From UHGV virus genome UHGV-0242533: a stretch of 64,000 bases of DNA; one strand, given 5' to 3'. Positions 6,085 through 36,912 of the stretch are shown one piece after another. The position numbers and the translations under genes were made by a program. The stretch is from a virus. The notes beneath the pieces are model-generated. The model saw only the letters and a program-made list of their open reading frames with translations. It made no database searches and was not told where the DNA came from. Every line of letters begins with the position of its first letter. The first letter of the stretch is position 1.

Positions 6085-7005
6085 GAGCACATTAGCTAAG
6101 GGAAACATTCCGAAGCGAAGCGAGACAACGGCTAACAGTTGCATAGCGTGAGCAAACACGCTGATAGATTTACCGCTCTTTAACAATATAAACGTTCTTC
6201 TATATCGGTTGAATATGCTTGATGATAATAACCATCGGAAAGCATACCAGATAAAACGGTGTAAGACTCTCTAGACTATCAGAGGAAACAGTCTTGCAAT
6301 CCCTTACTGGAAACGTCACCACTGATAAATGGATTCACTGAGTGCACGCAAAGACTTAAGCTAATCGCCCACGGTTAAGGGTAGCGGCGGTCATCGCTAA
6401 CAAGGCGCTACAGTGAAAGAAGTTAATCAGGGTAGACAAGTCCGACAAATTAACGCCCAATTGAGGGCGGCGGGGAGCGGTTAAAAAGTGGCAAATTGCT
6501 ATTTAACAATAAGGTTTAGTGTGAACGTTTACGATGTGAACGGCTTGAGATTCGTCTTACGATGAAAGTACATAGTCGGTTTATGTAGTAAACTCGCTGA
6601 AAGATATCAAACGTCGGAATACTAGACGGTTAATGACTCTTTCGCAATAGTCTCCCGTAGTGGGCGATGGCTAGCGATTGAGAGTTAATACAAAAGGATA
6701 GGCGAGAGCGAAAGCAAAGTAGACGATATTGCCGACGGTTACAATAACGTAACTAATTAGAGTCGGACACACTGCCTTATTGTGATGATTGATCATCGCT
6801 ATCAGGTCGGCTTTGTTTATAGCGACTAATTAAAGATACCAGATGAAACATCACGGATAAGGAGGCGGCAAGGTTAACTCCTGATAAGACCGCCTCACTT
6901 ACCTGTAACTGCTCAATAATGAGTGGTTAGAGTTAAGTTAATAGTGACTTAAACAAGCTCATAGAGAGCGGGGCATAGTGCCCTAAACATTAAAAGGTAA
7001 ATATC

Positions 7006-20319: not shown

Positions 20320-20937
20320 GTGAGCTTAGTAGCTGATTTTTCTCATTACTATAATGGTACATGGATTGCTAAACGAGCAGGCAATATCAACCTTCCGTGT
20401 TTTGTGATTGGTGTTGAGCAGAGCGGTAACTTCCGCAGCGATGACTTCTCGCATGAAGCAGAACAGGCTCTGTATTTTGTTGTAGAGCAGTGGTACAAGA
20501 ACGAGCATGGGAATCTCCGAAACACTACGATGAATATTCCAGTGTTCGACCCAACCTTGATTCTCGAATCACCTGATGTTGGTTATCTGTTCCATAACGG
20601 TAACACTGTAAGCTGGACTCATATCAATCCTGTTCGTCAGAGAGCGAAGGGTTTGATGGGTAACAAGATTCGAAACGCTCCGGGGATTGGTCGTTCGATC
20701 TCTGGTGAAATGGTTTACAGTCTGTTCAATCCTGAATTTGATGGATTGGTTACTCGTTATATTTACATCAATCCTACAGATGGTAAAGTGCATTATAAAG
20801 GTGCACTGGTAGGTCAGGTAGATCTGGAAGCGCCTCGTGACTCTTACGGTCAACAACCGATGCGACTTCTGGAACATTTTCATCACATCTCTGAAAACCT
20901 TAGCAATTATAATATTACGTTGGTGGATTCGTTATGA
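20320..20937 (+). CDS. hypothetical protein (205 aa)
   Basis: ORF. Confidence 0.65.
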   Translation: MSLVADFSHYYNGTWIAKRAGNINLPCFVIGVEQSGNFRSDDFSHEAEQALYFVVEQWYKNEHGNLRNTTMNIPVFDPTLILESPDVGYLFHNGNTVSWTHINPVRQRAKGLMGNKIRNAPGIGRSISGEMVYSLFNPEFDGLVTRYIYINPTDGKVHYKGALVGQVDLEAPRDSYGQQPMRLLEHFHHISENLSNYNITLVDSL

Positions 20938-22037
20938 CAACTGTAGCGCAAACTTTTGGATATCGAGAAGGTCGTTTAACTGAGGCGCATAGTTCAATTG
21001 CACTTCAGTGCGGTGTCGGTATTGAACTTGAACTCGAAGGTTCTGAACATATCGAAGCAGATATGTGGGATTGCACAGAGGATGGTTCCCTGCGTAACGG
21101 TTGTGAAATGGTATGTTCACGACCTTACAACGGACAGGAGTTGTTAGACGCTATCAACAACCTGAGTGAAGCAGTAGCTGAATCGCACGCCGAGGGGACT
21201 TGGCGTTGCTCTACTCACGTTCATATGGATATGAGGGATGCTGATAGTAATATCCTCAAGAAGACCATCCTTGCTTGGACCTTCTATGAAAAGATGCTGT
21301 TCAAGTGTTCAGGCTACCATCGTTACCGTAGCAATTTCTGCCCTGCGTTTGCAGTGGTACAAGCACAGGTAATGAATGCCTCTGACGCATTTAACTACGA
21401 TGGTGAAGAATTCTTCAACCGTCTGGTTCGTTCATGGGATAAATATACATCTCTGAACCTTCTGCCACTTGCCCAATACGGTTCAATTGAGTTCCGTATC
21501 AGTGAGCCTAAGTGGAAACGTGGTCAACTTCTCAATCTGGTTAACCGCTTCTTGATGTTGAAGAAGCTGGCTTTAGATAACGCAGATATGAGCAATGATC
21601 AGTTTATTGAGCACTTAAATACTGTACGATTTGCCCCAATGCTTCCCTACCTTCCTCTGGATTACAATCTGGATGAATCTGATTTGCATTCAGGATATTG
21701 TATGGCCCGTGATGTTTTGTATTGCCGTTCTCATGAAGTAGAACAGTCTGGTCGTATTCGTTTACGTAGAACTAACTCCAACGGAGATGTTCTTGTTGAC
21801 TTACGTCATATGTCAGACTTCTACGGATTCCTTGGATATGTCCGAGGGAACGCTAACAATTTGTACCAAGAGATTCTGGTTATGCTTCGTACAGCAGACC
21901 TATCTCAAGTAAGACACGCTCCAGAACAGCGTATCCGTGCTATTTTTGACTTACTGCGTGAGTCAGGTCACAGTGATAGCAATATCACAGGGTACATTCC
22001 AGACCATCTGGAAAATCAGTTAGAGCAAGCGCTGTAA
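20934..22037 (+). CDS. amidoligase (carboxylate-amine ligase family), copy 2
   Basis: VGIELELEG, STHVHMD, GSIEFRISE motifs. Confidence 0.65.
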   Translation: MTTVAQTFGYREGRLTEAHSSIALQCGVGIELELEGSEHIEADMWDCTEDGSLRNGCEMVCSRPYNGQELLDAINNLSEAVAESHAEGTWRCSTHVHMDMRDADSNILKKTILAWTFYEKMLFKCSGYHRYRSNFCPAFAVVQAQVMNASDAFNYDGEEFFNRLVRSWDKYTSLNLLPLAQYGSIEFRISEPKWKRGQLLNLVNRFLMLKKLALDNADMSNDQFIEHLNTVRFAPMLPYLPLDYNLDESDLHSGYCMARDVLYCRSHEVEQSGRIRLRRTNSNGDVLVDLRHMSDFYGFLGYVRGNANNLYQEILVMLRTADLSQVRHAPEQRIRAIFDLLRESGHSDSNITGYIPDHLENQLEQAL

Positions 22038-22116
22038 TCAATGGGTGCCTCTGACAAAGGGGCACAATTTAAAGGTTAATTAGATGAAAGGGTTTACCCT
22101 TCAGGTGGATTAGAAA

Positions 22117-24147
22117 ATTTGTGGCATCGTATTAGCTGGCGGTAATCTGTCAAGCACTGATTTAGACGTATTCAACCAACTCTTTTATGCTGGAGTATTC
22201 CGAGGACAACATTCCTCCGGCATCTTTGGTCAGCGTAAAAGCACTAAGGAAGTCTTCACTTATAAAGAAGCTCTTCCTTCTTTCGCATTCATCCTACAAG
22301 ATGAGTACAAGAAGCATACCACTGGTGAAACAGCTTACACTGTAGCACCTTCATGGATTGTTGGTCACAGTCGTCATGCAACGAAAGGTGCAGTTAACGC
22401 CAAGAACGCCCATCCTTTCCAACATGGTAACATCACTCTGGTTCATAATGGAACCTTGATGGACCAAGACCTGTTACCTGACAGTAAAAACTTCGAGGTA
22501 GACAGTGAGAACATCTGCCACTCTATTAACACTATTGGTGCAGCAGAGACTATTCAAAAGCTGGATGGTGCTTTCACCTTAATCTGGCATGATGCTTCTG
22601 ATAACCGTCTTCATATCATCCGTAACGAAGAGCGTCCATTCCATCTCGCACGTTGTAACAGAGATTGGTTTGGTGCTTCTGAAGAAGACATGTTGATGTG
22701 GATTCTGAAGCGTTCTAGATCTCACAAGAACCGTATTGATGAGCATTTTGAATGTAAAGTTGGTACAGAATATATCTTTGATATGTCAAACAACAGCATG
22801 ACTCTGGTTGAAGAGGTCGCCCACGAGCTTCCGGTTTTTACGGTAATCAATCGTTGGGGCAATTACTACTCGAACAACTACAGCCAAAGCAACTATCAAA
22901 GTTCCTCAAAAAGCAATACAAGCAATCCTTACGACACGAAGCCGGGAGTGACAGCGGCAGACGTTCGTCGAAGAAACGCAGTGGTAAGTCAAAACAAAAT
23001 CGCAAGCGATCGAAACATTGATATTCGCCGTGATATGACTGTGGAAATCACACCACATGAGTTTGTTCCTTATGCAGCTGCTGGTGCTGTTCCTTCTCGT
23101 GGTAAGATGATCGGTTATATCTACGATGAGAAGTCTCAAGAGTATATCGAAGGTGATGTTCATAATGTAGACATTAAGGCTTATCAGGATGCACTGAAAG
23201 ACCCTAAAATTGTTTACCGTGGAACAGTATCCTGCATCTCCGAAGTTAATGCTATGGTTCGTTTAGTGATCACAGCAGGTCGTTTTGTTGACCCATCTCT
23301 GGAGAAAAAGGAGCCTGAGTCTACTACTGCTGACTTTGATGATGATATCCCTTTTGACATGAATGATAGTTTCGTCAACAAGAATGGCGTTACTATCACT
23401 CGTAAATTCTGGGAAGCACACTCTCATGGTGACTGTGGTGGTTGTGACAAACACATTGATTGGAAGGACGCACCTAAAGCAGTCTTCGCATATCAGTGCT
23501 ACTGGCATCCTGAATGTCTGGAAGGTTTGACTAAACCTAAAGAGGAAGAAGAGGAGGAAACTCCTATTGGTGTTTGTGAAATCTGCGGTGAAGTTAAAAC
23601 AGAGAATGAGTTCGATGATGAACTTAGTCGTCTTCGTGGTGAAGATATCTGTAAAGTCTGCGCTGTAGAAGTAAAGAAGAAAGTATCTAATGCTACGATC
23701 AAAGATGGTTATGTATGGATTAAAGCAACAGATACAACAAACGCCCGTCGTCCTGAATTTGCTTTACGTGTAACTGAAGATATGATTGGTCGTATGACTG
23801 TATTACCTTCCTCAGCGAAACAGACAGGCATCACTCTGGAGGATGTTGTTGATGCTTATGTTGAGAAACGTAGCAACAGTATTTTTGCAATCTCAACTAA
23901 GCCAAAAAAGGAGGAACCTGCTGAGAAAGCAGGTGTGTTTCCTGAATCACGAACAGCTCTCCGAAAAACTGTTGTCAGCTTCGACGGAAACCGAAGCACT
24001 GACTTCACCAAAGCCATGTGGTCAACCCTCGGATACTGCTCAGAGTGTTTTAAGCAGATTCCGTGGCGCGATGCTGAAAGTTGTACGCTTGGTTCTATGA
24101 ATCAAGTTTATTGTAATTCTCCTAAATGTTCATTGAATAGAGGTTAA
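22117..24147 (+). CDS. class-II (Ntn-type) glutamine amidotransferase domain fused to Cys-rich zinc-ribbon-like C-terminal region
   Basis: C-G-I-V at 22120 then FRGQHSSGIFG, HSRHATKG...NAHPF, HNGTL motifs; frame open only from 22114; the codon before Cys is ATT (22117), preceded by in-frame TAG and a 9-codon ATG ORF (22084); the ORF track shows only the 22456..24147 portion. Confidence 0.75.
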   Translation: MCGIVLAGGNLSSTDLDVFNQLFYAGVFRGQHSSGIFGQRKSTKEVFTYKEALPSFAFILQDEYKKHTTGETAYTVAPSWIVGHSRHATKGAVNAKNAHPFQHGNITLVHNGTLMDQDLLPDSKNFEVDSENICHSINTIGAAETIQKLDGAFTLIWHDASDNRLHIIRNEERPFHLARCNRDWFGASEEDMLMWILKRSRSHKNRIDEHFECKVGTEYIFDMSNNSMTLVEEVAHELPVFTVINRWGNYYSNNYSQSNYQSSSKSNTSNPYDTKPGVTAADVRRRNAVVSQNKIASDRNIDIRRDMTVEITPHEFVPYAAAGAVPSRGKMIGYIYDEKSQEYIEGDVHNVDIKAYQDALKDPKIVYRGTVSCISEVNAMVRLVITAGRFVDPSLEKKEPESTTADFDDDIPFDMNDSFVNKNGVTITRKFWEAHSHGDCGGCDKHIDWKDAPKAVFAYQCYWHPECLEGLTKPKEEEEEETPIGVCEICGEVKTENEFDDELSRLRGEDICKVCAVEVKKKVSNATIKDGYVWIKATDTTNARRPEFALRVTEDMIGRMTVLPSSAKQTGITLEDVVDAYVEKRSNSIFAISTKPKKEEPAEKAGVFPESRTALRKTVVSFDGNRSTDFTKAMWSTLGYCSECFKQIPWRDAESCTLGSMNQVYCNSPKCSLNRG

Positions 24148-28640: not shown

Positions 28641-29436
28641 AAGTAACAAGCCCTCTATAAATTCTGTGAACTCAGGGGAACTCTAGAACAGACAATCCTG
28701 AGCTAAGCCTAGTAATAACCCTCCTATAAGGAGGTAATATGAAACAGTATCTTGGAAAATATACGGTTCATAAAGATGGACGAATAATCAGTCACTATAA
28801 CGGGAAGCCTTTAACCATCTCTCTTTACAAACCAAATAAACAGGGTAAGAAGATTGTTTATCCTAGAGTTAGGCTCTGTATTGACGGGAAAGGTAAATGG
28901 TTTGCACTACACAGGATTATAGCTGAATGCTATATCCCAAATCCAGAAAATCTTCCACATATAAACCATAAAGATGGAAACAGATTGAATAACTCTGTTG
29001 AAAATCTTGAATGGTGCAGTCATCTACAGAATATACGGCATGCCCAAGAACACAACCTCAACCCTAAAGGAGAGAGGCAAGGTATTGCAGTTGCAACTGA
29101 AGAGATTGTAAGGAGAATTAGAAGTTTAAGAAGGGGTGGTATGTCTTATAAAGATATCGCTGAGCTTGTTAAACTTAAGAGAAGAACAGTCGAAGCTATT
29201 GGTTCTTATCAAAACTGGAAACACATAGAGTGAGTGGTTATTACTAGGAAAGTGCAACGACTAGGGTGGGCGTAAGCCCGAAGTACAGCCAAGCGGTGTC
29301 ATTAACATTGACTTAAATGGAAGCGCAGAACCTTCAAATTGAAGTGAAGATATAGTCTGGTCTACATGGGGACATGTAGCAGTTCAGAGATAGAACCTGA
29401 ACGGGGTGTGATTAGCGATCACATCTGAACACAACG
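28641..29436 (+). mobile_element. group I self-splicing intron (about 0.8 kb) carrying an HNH homing-endonuclease ORF
   Basis: Host gene frame shifts by +1 across the insert; 3' region has AAGATATAGTC (near-canonical group I S element), GACTA/TAGTC P7 candidates and three stable hairpins; exon 1 ends in T, insert ends in G; boundaries approximate (+/- 6 nt). Confidence 0.6.
28739..29233 (+). CDS. HNH homing endonuclease (intron-encoded)
   Basis: H-x-H...N...N-x-x-x-N-L-x-W...H-x-x-N pattern (INHKDGNRLNNSVENLEWCSHLQN); strong RBS AAGGAGG. Confidence 0.8.
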   Translation: MKQYLGKYTVHKDGRIISHYNGKPLTISLYKPNKQGKKIVYPRVRLCIDGKGKWFALHRIIAECYIPNPENLPHINHKDGNRLNNSVENLEWCSHLQNIRHAQEHNLNPKGERQGIAVATEEIVRRIRSLRRGGMSYKDIAELVKLKRRTVEAIGSYQNWKHIE

Positions 29437-35120: not shown

Positions 35121-35306
35121 ATGGATAAGAAAGTGTGCAGCTTCTGTAAGAAAGAGAAGCCTATCGCCAACTTTAAGTTTAATCCTGTAACCGGTTTGAC
35201 TCATGTCATGTGTCACTCTTGCAGGATATACCTTGAAACAAAGCACACCATTAACAGGTTGCACTATTATCACCCAACAACATTCAAATTTAAGGTTGTG
35301 AAATGA
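35121..35306 (+). CDS. small zinc-finger protein
   Basis: CSFC...CHSC; start ambiguous (track 35082). Confidence 0.45.
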   Translation: MDKKVCSFCKKEKPIANFKFNPVTGLTHVMCHSCRIYLETKHTINRLHYYHPTTFKFKVVK

Positions 35307-35632
35307 TTGACAGTAATACATTTAGGACTTCAAATGGAAGTGAGATAAGTCCCGCTGAAGTAATTAATCGGCACAGAAGGCAATTGATCATCCATTCCTA
35401 TTTGTATTACTGGTTGGATGACCCTATCTGGTCTGACGATAAATGGCAACAAGTTGCTAATGACCTAGTGGAGCTGCAAGCCCTGTATCCAGAGCCTACT
35501 GGAGTCTTTGACAATGAATTCAAAGATTGGGATGGTTCTACAGGGATGCACTTCCCACACAATGAGGCTGTTGCTTGTATGGCGACAGCTGTTTACAGGA
35601 TTCATAAAGATATGAACCATGAAGTGCTCTAG
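35303..35632 (+). CDS. small protein resembling the N-terminal (Ia) domain of NAD-dependent DNA ligase
   Basis: HSYLYYWLDDPIWSDDKWQQVANDLVELQALYPEP resembles the LigA N-terminus as recalled. Confidence 0.4.
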   Translation: MIDSNTFRTSNGSEISPAEVINRHRRQLIIHSYLYYWLDDPIWSDDKWQQVANDLVELQALYPEPTGVFDNEFKDWDGSTGMHFPHNEAVACMATAVYRIHKDMNHEVL

Positions 35633-35804
35633 ATGTGAAGGAACAAACCTTCATTTAAGTAACAAGGTTATCAGAGAGCTTGCCAAAGGCTCTCCAACCA
35701 AAGGGAAGAACAAACGATTTACTAACGTCAGGGTTTATACAGCAATCTGTAAAGACTGCTTAACCACTGAGTGTCATTACGAAGAAATTGGAGAGCGTAA
35801 ATGA
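35619..35804 (+). CDS. small zinc-ribbon protein
   Basis: CSRC...CKDC. Confidence 0.45.
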   Translation: MKCSRCEGTNLHLSNKVIRELAKGSPTKGKNKRFTNVRVYTAICKDCLTTECHYEEIGERK

Positions 35805-36538
35805 GTCGTCGTCAATCACGGAAAGAATCACGGAAAGACCTTCGTCGGGAAGCACTTGTTACTCGTAAGGGTAAGCGAGAGTATGAAGAGGTGGTTTTAG
35901 CAAAGCCTGTAGTCCCTCAGAACCAGTTTCAGTCTGAGCTACTCAATGCTATTAAGACTAAACAAGTTGTGTTCACAGACGCTCCTGCGGGCTGTGGTAA
36001 GACCTTTGTAATCACTTCCACGGTTATCGATGCACTGAAGAGTGGTAAGATTCAGAAGATCATCCTGAGTCGACCTTCAGTTGGCATGGGTAACTCTCTT
36101 GGGTTACTTCCGGGAGGAATGCGTGAGAAGTTTGAACCATACCTGATGCCTATCATTGATGTTATTACTCAGCGATACGGTAAGGGATTCTATGAATGCC
36201 AAATCGGAAATGGTAACATTGAATTTGTACCTCTGGAATATCTCCGTGGTCGCTCTTTCAATGATGCCATTGTTATCGTAGATGAGTTCCAGAACACAAC
36301 TAAGGATGAAGCCTTCTCCATCATGACTCGATTGGGAGAAACCTCTCAATTGTTCTGTATGGGTGATACAAACCAGCATGATATGCGTGGTCGCGAGAGT
36401 GGTCTAACTTGGGCTACTAACTTTATTGATGAACACGATCTGTATGAGTTTGCTGAGATTGTAGATGGTGAATCAGATGATATTGTTCGTTCTGGTTTCT
36501 GTAAGGCGATTGTTAAAGCAATGGAAAAGAAAGCTTAA
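35801..36538 (+). CDS. phoH: PhoH-like ATPase
   Basis: Walker A APAGCGKTF, Walker B IVIVDEFQN, GDTNQHD. Confidence 0.75.
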   Translation: MSRRQSRKESRKDLRREALVTRKGKREYEEVVLAKPVVPQNQFQSELLNAIKTKQVVFTDAPAGCGKTFVITSTVIDALKSGKIQKIILSRPSVGMGNSLGLLPGGMREKFEPYLMPIIDVITQRYGKGFYECQIGNGNIEFVPLEYLRGRSFNDAIVIVDEFQNTTKDEAFSIMTRLGETSQLFCMGDTNQHDMRGRESGLTWATNFIDEHDLYEFAEIVDGESDDIVRSGFCKAIVKAMEKKA

Positions 36539-36549
36539 ACAGTAACTTA

Positions 36550-36558
36550 TAATGTATA
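36550..36558 (+). promoter_or_regulatory. phage-type promoter element TAATGTATA
   Basis: Exact 9-mer 37 nt upstream of ATG 36595; same 9-mer at 41307 and on the minus strand at 50680. Confidence 0.45.
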
Positions 36559-36594
36559 CTCCTTAGTGTACACTGATATATTAAGGAGTTCTAA

Positions 36595-36912
36595 ATGGCA
36601 GACCATGTAGGAAAGAGAGATTATGCACAAGAAAGACGTACCGCAATTGCCCGTGGTGAAACAGGCGTTGGGAGCAAGAGCGGAGATGCTCAGCGCCACC
36701 GTGCACGTCGCATCGTTGAAAAGCGCGATGGAAAAGCTGCTGTCAGAGGTAAAGACGTTGGACACAAACGAGCTGTCAAGTCTGGAGGCTCTAATGCGTC
36801 AAGCAACTTACGTGTTGAATCAGTCAGCTCAAACCGTTCAAACGGCGGCAAAAGTGGTGATCGAGCTGGAAAAGCAGCTGGAGCACGCAAAGGGGCTTTA
36901 AGCTCATCGTAA
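36595..36912 (+). CDS. basic Gly/Ser/Arg/Lys-rich low-complexity protein (105 aa)
   Basis: ATG with AAGGAG RBS directly after promoter element; an overlapping ORF in another frame (36623..36901) also looks protein-like. Confidence 0.45.
   Translation: MADHVGKRDYAQERRTAIARGETGVGSKSGDAQRHRARRIVEKRDGKAAVRGKDVGHKRAVKSGGSNASSNLRVESVSSNRSNGGKSGDRAGKAAGARKGALSSS

What the first reader, a model, noticed from the sequence alone, without database searches (positions are those of the whole stretch)
22084..22125. Amidotransferase catalytic Cys has no canonical start codon: ATT start or in-frame amber codon
Class-II amidotransferases need Cys as residue 1 of the mature enzyme. Here CGIV begins at 22120, the codon before it is ATT (22117), then an in-frame TAG (22111-22113), and upstream a 9-codon ORF ATG-AAA-GGG-TTT-ACC-CTT-CAG-GTG-GAT (22084) with its own RBS. 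Either translation starts at AUU (SD-like AGGTGG about 10 nt upstream), or the TAG is read through or suppressed to give a 12-residue propeptide that is cleaved off, or the gene carries an amber mutation.
Basis: seen in the sequence. Interest (0 to 1): 0.6.

Follow-up and report, generated by a model that had tools for sequence, protein, structure and literature searches.

The report
AUU start codon with conserved hairpin
A phage glutamine amidotransferase gene really does lack a normal start codon and almost certainly starts at AUU; the same unusual "hairpin, strong ribosome-binding site, AUU" arrangement recurs in many unrelated phages that carry this enzyme.

Summary
In this phiEco32-like Kuravirus the catalytic Cys codon (22120) is preceded by ATT (22117), AAA, an in-frame TAG (22111-13) and a 9-codon ATG mini-ORF (22084).

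It is not an error or a mutation. The 56-nt block is identical in all 97 Gordonclarkvirinae records and 6 metagenome contigs. Codons 1-112 evolve as coding sequence.

Among relatives of the enzyme, 65 of 78 loci have ATG-TGT. Fourteen distinct leaders, scattered over the tree, have ATT-TGT. All 14 have a strong Shine-Dalgarno about 7 nt upstream, and in 11 of them no in-frame canonical start is available. All 14 also have a 5-bp hairpin abutting the SD, against 3 of 52 ATG leaders, and all five pairs covary. The in-frame stop and upstream ORF are not conserved, which argues against readthrough and a propeptide.

The stop-3 nt-AUU layout mirrors thrS-infC. An HNH homing endonuclease or its remnant lies just upstream in 4 ATT lineages and in 0 of 52 ATG ones.

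GenBank already annotates the ATT start for phiEco32 and SU10. I found no description of the recurrent hairpin-SD-AUU module or of the endonuclease link.

The parts
20934..22037 (+). Upstream gene (phiEco32 gp84 homologue, Amidoligase_2), stop TAA at 22035-37
22045..22065 (+). Intergenic hairpin after gp84 (GUGCCUCU / AGGGGCAC). The stem changes in a compensatory way between genera. No U-tract follows.
22068..22124 (+). Invariant leader block: 57 nt identical to SU7, and 56 nt identical in all 97 Gordonclarkvirinae records, while the flanks are 70-78% identical
22071..22075 (+). AAAGG, a possible SD for the mini-ORF (8-nt spacer). It is absent in Aeromonas phage BUCT695.
22084..22113 (+). 9-codon mini-ORF MKGFTLQVD* in the same frame as the amidotransferase. 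Its TAG ends 3 nt before the ATT.
22088..22101 (+). 5-bp hairpin AAGGG-UUUA-CCCUU that abuts the SD. An equivalent hairpin with a different stem sequence is present in all 14 ATT-type leaders, and all five pairs covary.
22103..22109 (+). Shine-Dalgarno AGGUGGA for the AUU start, 7-8 nt upstream
22111..22113 (+). In-frame TAG, the stop of the mini-ORF. Stop, 3 nt, then AUU is the layout of thrS-infC.
   Evidence: PMC3592434
22117..22119 (+). ATT, the inferred initiation codon. The phiEco32 and SU10 GenBank CDS start here.
22120..22122 (+). TGT, the catalytic N-terminal Cys of the class-II (Ntn) amidotransferase domain
22117..24147 (+). Amidotransferase gene (phiEco32 gp83 homologue): 675-aa mature protein, GATase_6/7 domain, and a C-terminal Cys-rich extension with no Pfam hit

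Best explanation
Translation of the amidotransferase starts at the AUU codon 22117-19, directed by the SD AGGUGGA 7-8 nt upstream. Removal of the initiator Met then exposes Cys as residue 1. The small hairpin 22088-22101 directly 5' of the SD is a functional part of this start site. The 9-codon mini-ORF that ends 3 nt before the AUU may add ribosomes by termination-reinitiation, as at thrS-infC.

What is shown: the sequence, its invariance, that the N-terminal domain is translated, and that hairpin-SD-AUU recurs and covaries in 14 distinct leaders.

What is inferred: that AUU is the codon actually used (about 0.85), that the hairpin aids or gates initiation (about 0.6), and that the mini-ORF contributes by coupling (about 0.35-0.4). 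It is also inferred that AUU serves to keep expression low or dependent on IF3 or on coupling.
For: (1) No canonical start lies between the in-frame TAG and the Cys. The next one is 112 codons downstream.
(2) Codons 1-112 differ from four other-genus phages mainly at third positions (13-21 / 13-15 / 58-66 by codon position), so they are translated in this frame.
(3) Cys1, R28-G29, G82-H83-x-R85, N96-AHPF, H109-N110-G111 and D128-S129 are invariant in 11 relatives. The profile matches GlmS, PurF and AsnB, and position 1 aligns with Cys1 of GFAT1.
(4) In 65 of 78 IMG/VR relatives ATG directly precedes the Cys codon, TTG in 2 and ATT in 10. A scan that did not select for a hairpin added 6 more ATT genes.
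(5) All 14 distinct ATT leaders have an SD about 7 nt upstream. SD pairing energy for the first 8 had a median of -7.35 against -5.8 kcal/mol for ATG leaders, p=0.003. Eleven of the 14 have no in-frame canonical start after the nearest upstream stop.
(6) A hairpin of 5 bp or more ends 11-18 nt before the start in 14 of 14 ATT leaders and in 3 of 52 ATG leaders (Fisher 9e-12, not corrected for phylogeny).
(7) In a model-based alignment of 11 leaders all 5 pairs covary, 54 of 54 cells pair, and 0 of 500 shuffles reach this.
(8) ATT lineages are scattered over the protein tree.
(9) GenBank and RefSeq CDS of phiEco32 and SU10 start at this ATT.
(10) The protein was detected by mass spectrometry in SU10 with 9 peptides (PMC4281155).
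(11) infC uses AUU 3 nt after the thrS stop, and reinitiation and de novo initiation contribute about equally there (PMC3592434).
Against: There is no N-terminal protein sequence and no ribosome profiling. The SU10 proteomics used the truncated 63.8-kDa model, so it says nothing about the N-terminus.

AUU is a weak start: it was 6-8 times lower than AUG in one reporter (PMC3592434). UUG and GUG triplets overlap it out of frame.

The SD here (AGGUGG, -7.0 kcal/mol) is weaker than in most other ATT leaders, and weaker still in BUCT695 (AGGCGG).

Hairpins just upstream of an SD were mildly inhibitory in reporters (PMC3592434), so the direction of the hairpin's effect is unknown.

The mini-ORF AUG has no SD in BUCT695, and upstream ORFs ending next to the ATT are seen in only about half of the ATT lineages. 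This weakens the coupling part.

The covariation alignment was fitted to the structure, and the Fisher tests ignore relatedness.

Complete invariance of all 56 nt goes beyond what SD, hairpin and AUU require, and remains unexplained.
Confidence: 0.82

Rival explanations
1. Amber readthrough or suppression. Ribosomes start at the mini-ORF ATG 22084 and read through TAG 22111. They make a precursor with a 12-residue propeptide, which is cleaved to expose Cys1 as in B. subtilis PurF.
For: The mini-ORF is in frame with the enzyme, has an ATG and a weak SD, and is invariant. One distant relative (L121) has an in-frame ATG 8 codons upstream with no stop. Propeptide-bearing Ntn amidotransferases exist (own knowledge: B. 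subtilis PurF).
Against: The in-frame stop lies 1-27 codons upstream in different ATT lineages, and 11 of 14 have no in-frame canonical start. The SD is placed for the ATT, not for any upstream codon. Both changes in the BUCT695 mini-ORF alter the amino acid (F to L, V to A), while TAG-AAA-ATT is kept. The only tRNA in the window is Arg(TCT). The L121 ATG has no SD and lies inside the hairpin. UAG readthrough in sup0 E. coli is very low (own knowledge).
Confidence: 0.04
2. The gene is broken by an amber mutation or a sequencing error, or it starts at a downstream canonical codon (TTG 22456 or similar). The result would be a protein without the amidotransferase nucleophile, as many GenBank records annotate.
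For: Gene callers produce this model (WFI101126, Paul, KBNP1711, EP335, SU7). The 63.8-kDa mass in the SU10 proteomics table matches the truncated model.
Against: The junction is identical in 97 genomes and 6 metagenome contigs. Codons 1-112 show a strong third-position bias in substitutions, and all catalytic motifs are invariant. The internal ATG used in SU7 and ECBP2 is absent from the window.
Confidence: 0.03
3. The leader is mainly a scar of a mobile HNH homing-endonuclease cassette that inserts at the 5' end of amidotransferase genes. On this view ATT, the hairpin and the nearby stop were brought in or selected by that element (for example as cleavage immunity or as coupling to the endonuclease ORF) rather than for regulating the enzyme. 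This concerns origin and is compatible with AUU initiation.
For: Homologous HNH_3 + HTH endonuclease genes lie immediately upstream of ATT-type genes in L124, L148 and L143, and a decayed copy lies in BUCT695. None is found upstream of 52 ATG-type genes (Fisher 0.0014). In L124 the endonuclease ORF runs through the hairpin and SD and stops 4 nt before the ATT. The leader is about 95% identical between E. coli and Aeromonas phages whose enzymes are 35% identical overall and 53% in the N-domain. L122 shares 18 identical nt with the window at 34% protein identity.
Against: No Gordonclarkvirinae record has an endonuclease at this site. In BUCT695 the remnant lies upstream of the whole leader, whose 5' half is homologous to ATG-type leaders. 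Ten of 14 ATT lineages show no endonuclease within the DNA held. No cleavage site is known. Only 600 nt upstream were examined for the ATG-type loci.
Confidence: 0.3

Closest known systems
E. coli infC (IF3) start site: AUU codon 3 nt after the thrS stop
   Same: AUU initiator, an SD upstream, and a stop codon of an upstream ORF 3 nt before the AUU (UAA GGU AUU against UAG AAA AUU here). Expression there is a mix of reinitiation and de novo initiation (PMC3592434).
   Different: In infC the AUU serves autoregulation by IF3. Here the product is a metabolic enzyme, the upstream ORF has only 9 codons, and a covarying hairpin abuts the SD. No dependence on IF3 has been tested.
E. coli pcnB and E. 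faecalis ebpA: AUU/ATT starts that limit expression
   Same: A rare non-canonical ATT start kept by selection, apparently to hold expression low (10.1101/063800; PMC4447247).
   Different: Those are single genes in single lineages. Here ATT recurs in 14 distinct leaders of one phage enzyme family, always with a hairpin and a strong SD.
B. subtilis PurF-type propeptide amidotransferases
   Same: A class-II amidotransferase whose catalytic Cys is not encoded directly after an ATG.
   Different: PurF has an uninterrupted in-frame propeptide that starts at ATG and is cleaved (own knowledge). Here an in-frame TAG intervenes, and most ATT relatives have no upstream in-frame ORF.
phiEco32-type amidoligase / GAT-II / ATP-grasp gene cluster
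   Same: Same genes and order: COOH-NH2 ligase (PF14395), Amidoligase_2, class-II amidotransferase, DUF7195, ATP-grasp. The window is a close relative of phiEco32 (98% nt identity).
   Different: Nothing differs in gene content. The point here is the start site, which records annotate inconsistently.
Free-standing HNH homing endonucleases of phages inserted next to conserved genes
   Same: HNH_3 + HTH genes sit directly upstream of the conserved active-site-coding 5' end of the amidotransferase gene in several relatives.
   Different: None is present at this site in the window. A link between such an element and a start-codon change has not been described, to my knowledge.

Membership tests
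Class-II (Ntn) glutamine amidotransferase | Cys as the first residue of the mature enzyme | tested here: met
   Cys1 is invariant in 11 relatives. Profile position 1 aligns with Cys1 of GFAT1. In 65 of 78 relatives ATG directly precedes the Cys codon.
Class-II (Ntn) glutamine amidotransferase | Conserved glutamine-site residues (Arg, Asn-Gly, Asp) and a family profile match | tested here: met
   GH-x-R-x-AT-G, HNG and DS motifs are invariant. GATase_6 scores 55 bits and GATase_7 27.4 bits, both above the cut-off. The profile hits GlmS, PurF and AsnB.
Class-II (Ntn) glutamine amidotransferase | Four-layer alpha-beta-beta-alpha Ntn fold | not tested
   No structure prediction was run.
AUU-initiated genes (infC / pcnB type) | AUU at the correct distance from an SD, with no canonical alternative | tested here: met
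   AGGUGGA lies 7-8 nt upstream and no in-frame ATG/GTG/TTG lies between the TAG and the Cys. The same holds in 11 of 14 ATT leaders.
AUU-initiated genes (infC / pcnB type) | AUU conserved among relatives | tested here: met
   97 of 97 Gordonclarkvirinae records, BUCT695, and 12 further distinct leaders.
AUU-initiated genes (infC / pcnB type) | Experimental proof of initiation at AUU, and dependence on IF3 | not testable with these tools
   Needs N-terminal sequencing, toeprinting or reporters.
Termination-reinitiation coupling | The upstream ORF stop lies within a few nt of the restart codon, with the SD inside the upstream ORF | tested here: met
   The mini-ORF TAG ends 3 nt before the ATT and the SD lies inside the mini-ORF. 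Real upstream genes end 1-4 nt before the ATT in L124, L134, L137 and L141.
Termination-reinitiation coupling | The arrangement is conserved wherever ATT is used, and the upstream ORF is translatable | tested here: inconclusive
   It is absent or unclear in L099, L115, L121, L139, L140 and L148. The BUCT695 mini-ORF has no SD.
Propeptide-type amidotransferase (B. subtilis PurF) | An uninterrupted in-frame ORF from a canonical start to the Cys | tested here: not met
   In-frame TAG at 22111-13. Most ATT relatives lack any in-frame start.
Programmed stop-codon readthrough | A conserved stop, with upstream coding sequence under protein-level selection | tested here: not met
   The stop position varies from 1 to 27 codons upstream. 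Both substitutions in the BUCT695 mini-ORF are non-synonymous. No suppressor tRNA is present.
Known RNA families (riboswitches, frameshift elements) | An Rfam match at gathering score | tested here: not met
   Only sub-threshold chance hits in 21950-22250. The whole window gives only the tRNA.
phiEco32 gp36 (phage sigma) promoter | tAATGTAtA motif at a mapped promoter | tested here: not met
   Mapped promoters lie upstream of genes 6, 13, 26, 40, 58 and 68 only (PMC4331800). The leader reads TTTAAAGGTTAAT. No sigma-70 match on the + strand.

The most novel reading that the evidence does not exclude
Hairpin-SD-stop-AUU is a portable initiation module tied to a family of HNH homing endonucleases that home to the 5' end of phage class-II amidotransferase genes. 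The start codon is the only position next to the invariant Cys-Gly codons that can change without altering the mature enzyme. Changing ATG to ATT, with a compensating strong SD and hairpin, would then be selected as immunity to cleavage and/or to couple the enzyme's translation to the endonuclease ORF. The invariant Gordonclarkvirinae leader would be the endonuclease-free remnant of such an event.
Probability: 0.2. Interest if true: 0.8.

Novelty: new variant of a known kind. Interest (0 to 1): 0.55.

Why it matters
Confirmed AUU starts are very rare. Only infC and pcnB are confirmed in E. coli (10.1101/063800). Here a single phage enzyme family shows AUU in 14 distinct leaders, always with a covarying hairpin that abuts a strong SD. 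That is a natural series of variants for studying how bacterial ribosomes use a weak start codon: the role of IF3, reinitiation, and mRNA structure at the edge of the SD.

There is also a practical consequence. Many of the deposited records I inspected annotate a truncated, catalytically dead protein or no gene at this position. Gene callers limited to ATG/GTG/TTG will make the same error throughout this family.

The association with homing endonucleases raises a testable idea: that mobile endonucleases can drive start-codon change.

Tried and rejected
Rfam scan of the leader at E up to 10 and of the whole window at gathering score: nothing relevant.

Known phage-sigma or sigma-70 promoter in the leader: not supported.

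Long-range helix 22074-86 with 22125-37, and an SD-masking alternative hairpin 22091-22111, both from the MFE fold. The z-score is only -1.8, both are broken in BUCT695, and no common enclosing structure appears in other ATT leaders.

More leader variants. Two IMG/VR pattern scans and one metagenome scan returned only identical copies plus chance matches.

Nucleotide search with the BUCT695 endonuclease remnant: no match elsewhere apart from the leader itself.

MAFFT could not put the short hairpins in register, so a covariance model was used instead. That model missed L124, L141 and L148, whose hairpins were checked by a simple stem search.

The original phiEco32 papers (PMC2587145, PMC3275717) are not held. 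The SU10 supplements hold no peptide data.

Bypassing or hopping and frameshifting were considered and dropped. The mini-ORF and the gene share a frame, and no matched take-off and landing codons exist.
Full report
**1.

The window is a phiEco32-like Kuravirus (Gordonclarkvirinae). The region 21900-22700 is 98% identical to phiEco32, SU10 and many others.

- ATG at 22084, followed by AAA GGG TTT ACC CTT CAG GTG GAT.
- TAG at 22111-13, AAA, then ATT at 22117-19.
- TGT at 22120-22, followed by GGC ATC GTA (CGIV).

AGGTGG lies at 22103-08, 8 nt before the ATT. The only in-frame canonical start downstream is TTG at 22456.

The GenBank and RefSeq CDS of phiEco32 (phi32_83) and of SU10 (SU10_085) begin exactly at this ATT. 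Other records start at an internal ATG or TTG, or leave the region unannotated.

**2. It is not an error, and the N-terminus is translated**

- The 56-nt block 22070-22125 is 100% identical in all 97 Gordonclarkvirinae records, which span three genera.
- It is also identical in six metagenome contigs.
- Against four phages of other genera, codons 1-112 differ at 13-21 first positions, 13-15 second positions and 58-66 third positions. This is the signature of a translated frame.
- The roughly 50 nt upstream of the Cys codon show no change at all.
- Cys1, R28-G29, G-H-x-R-x-A-T-x-G, NAHPF, H-N-G and D-S are invariant in 11 relatives.
- A profile of these relatives hits GlmS, PurF and AsnB. Its position 1 aligns with Cys1 of human GFAT1.
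- Pfam gives GATase_6 and GATase_7 above threshold.

A start at 22456 would delete the nucleophile and the glutamine site.

**3. Which of the three readings is right**

I fetched DNA around relatives of the N-terminal domain. Of 78 usable IMG/VR loci:
- 65 have ATG directly before the Cys codon.
- 2 have TTG.
- 10 have ATT. L099 was added to the ATT set after re-registering its Cys codon.

One Aeromonas phage (APT65) has GTG. A pattern scan for GGAGGA-N7-ATTTGTGG did not select for any hairpin. It added six more distinct ATT-type genes.

In total there are 14 distinct ATT leaders. On a neighbour-joining tree of the N-domains, built from the loci, the ATT leaders known at that point were scattered among ATG lineages.

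| Feature of the 14 ATT leaders | Result |
|---|---|
| SD (mostly GGAGGA) about 7 nt before the ATT | all 14 |
| No in-frame ATG/GTG/TTG between the nearest in-frame upstream stop and the ATT | 11 of 14 |
| Position of that in-frame stop | 1 to 27 codons upstream |

So the in-frame amber codon and the mini-ORF are not the conserved features. The ATT and its SD are.

Other points against readthrough:
- The only tRNA in the window is Arg(TCT).
- In Aeromonas phage BUCT695 the two changes in the mini-ORF are both non-synonymous. One falls in the hairpin loop and one in the SD. TAG-AAA-ATT is kept.

Readthrough with a propeptide, and mutation or error, are therefore poorly supported. AUU initiation is the reading that fits all lineages.

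**4. A second conserved element: a hairpin abutting the SD**

- A stem of at least 5 bp with a loop of 3-6 nt ends 11-18 nt before the start codon in 14 of 14 ATT leaders.
- The same is true of only 3 of 52 distinct ATG leaders. Fisher p = 9e-12, uncorrected for relatedness.
- The stem sequences all differ: AAGGG/CCCUU here, then AAGCU/AGCUU, GACUC/GAGUC, CCGGC/GCCGG, GUCGG/CCGAC and others.
- In a covariance-model alignment of 11 leaders all five pairs show double changes, 54 of 54 cells pair, and 0 of 500 shuffles reach this. Sliding the partner by one column drops pairing to 38-44%. The alignment is fitted to the model, so these counts lean towards the structure.
- ATT leaders also have stronger SDs. 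For the first 8 the median was -7.35 against -5.8 kcal/mol, p = 0.003. Most of the added ones are near -9.5 to -10.
- The model finds only one copy in the 64-kb window.

**5. The mini-ORF and coupling**

Stop, 3 nt, AUU is the layout of thrS-infC (UAA GGU AUU). There, reinitiation and de novo initiation were found to contribute about equally (PMC3592434).

- Real upstream genes end 1-4 nt before the ATT in L124, L134, L137 and L141.
- Other ATT leaders have no such ORF.
- The BUCT695 mini-ORF AUG lacks an SD.

I rate coupling as a plausible contributor (about 0.35-0.4), not as the core mechanism.

The 5' half of the leader (TTTAAAnGT...TAGATGAAAGG) is homologous to the ATG-type leaders of the nearest relatives (A24, L062, L064). 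In those, GAAAGGA or AGAGGA is the SD. The ATT type carries about 17-28 extra nt, and the old SD has become the 5' arm of the hairpin.

**6. A link to homing endonucleases**

- In L124 an intact HNH_3 / zf-His_Me_endon + HTH gene runs through the hairpin and SD and stops 4 nt before the ATT.
- Homologues (43-55% identical) lie directly upstream of the ATT-type genes in L148 and L143.
- BUCT695 has a decayed copy between the amidoligase and the leader.
- None is detected in the 600 nt upstream of 52 ATG-type genes (Fisher p = 0.0014).
- The BUCT695 leader is about 95% identical to the window's, while the enzymes are 35% identical overall and 53% in the N-domain.
- L122 shares GGATTAGAAAATTTGTGG with the window at 34% protein identity.

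This suggests that part of the module's spread is horizontal and linked to the endonuclease. It remains an inference. No Gordonclarkvirinae record has an endonuclease at this site.

**7. What remains unexplained**

All 56 nt are invariant, including the loop, the spacer and the wobble positions of the mini-ORF. This exceeds what SD, hairpin and AUU require.

As a control, the 57-nt exact run shared with SU7 is the 14th longest in 45.5 kb aligned at 76% identity. It is unusual but not unique. Predicted long-range pairings are not conserved. No Rfam family or known promoter explains it.

**8. Comparison with what is known, and novelty**

- It works like the AUU starts of infC and pcnB (10.1101/063800; PMC3592434) and the ATT start of ebpA (PMC4447247).
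- The ATT start at this locus is already in GenBank for phiEco32 and SU10, so the bare finding is not new. It is unverified experimentally and is annotated inconsistently.
- I found no paper in the held library that links an ATT start to phage amidotransferases.
- I therefore treat three things as a new variant of a known kind: the recurrence of ATT in this family, the covarying hairpin next to the SD, and the endonuclease association.

**9. Verdict**

- Observation: confirmed.
- Interpretation: partly supported (option 1 of the three).
- Best explanation: AUU initiation with an SD-adjacent hairpin, confidence about 0.82.
- Interest: 0.55.

Noticed in passing
window 6200-6862: Long exact-identity runs to the other-genus phage SU7 (107, 63, 62, 48, 44 nt) in a stretch with no ORF of 90 aa or more and no Rfam hit. 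It may be a conserved non-coding or small-ORF region, perhaps the early promoter region.
   Followed up: partly
window 28739-29233 (+): A 164-aa HNH_3 + HTH homing endonuclease gene. It has the same architecture as the endonucleases found upstream of ATT-type amidotransferase genes in other phages, and its HTH part gives a weak tblastn match to the L124 endonuclease.
   Followed up: partly
window 35180-36744: The NAD-ligase-like (Nlig-Ia) and PhoH genes are nearly identical to SU7 (exact runs up to 156 nt), although the genomes average 76% identity. This points to strong constraint or recent exchange.
   Followed up: partly
window 22860-24147: The C-terminal ~430 residues of the amidotransferase protein carry several CxxC pairs (zinc-ribbon-like) and match no Pfam family. 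Their function is unknown.
   Followed up: no
window 22045-22065: The hairpin after the amidoligase gene keeps its structure through compensatory changes between genera (GUGCC/GGCAC against GCGC/GCGC) but has no U-tract. It may act in RNA stability or processing rather than as a terminator.
   Followed up: partly
L022 (Aeromonas phage BUCT695) 6395-6600: A decayed HNH homing endonuclease lies between the amidoligase and amidotransferase genes, unannotated in the record. It consists of an N-terminal GDCWLWTGCINSDGYP fragment and a C-terminal HTH_3 separated by stops.
   Followed up: yes
GenBank/RefSeq records of Gordonclarkvirinae (e.g. NC_070991, MN045231, NC_023593, NC_070979, NC_070980): The amidotransferase CDS is annotated from an internal TTG or ATG, or not at all. 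This removes the catalytic Cys, and one record even marks a 'terminator' inside the true coding region (L002 1797-1818).
   Followed up: yes
L122 / L149 upstream of the ATT-type gene: The gene immediately upstream is a Peptidase_C26 / class-I amidotransferase-like protein whose stop codon lies in the loop of the SD-adjacent hairpin.
   Followed up: partly
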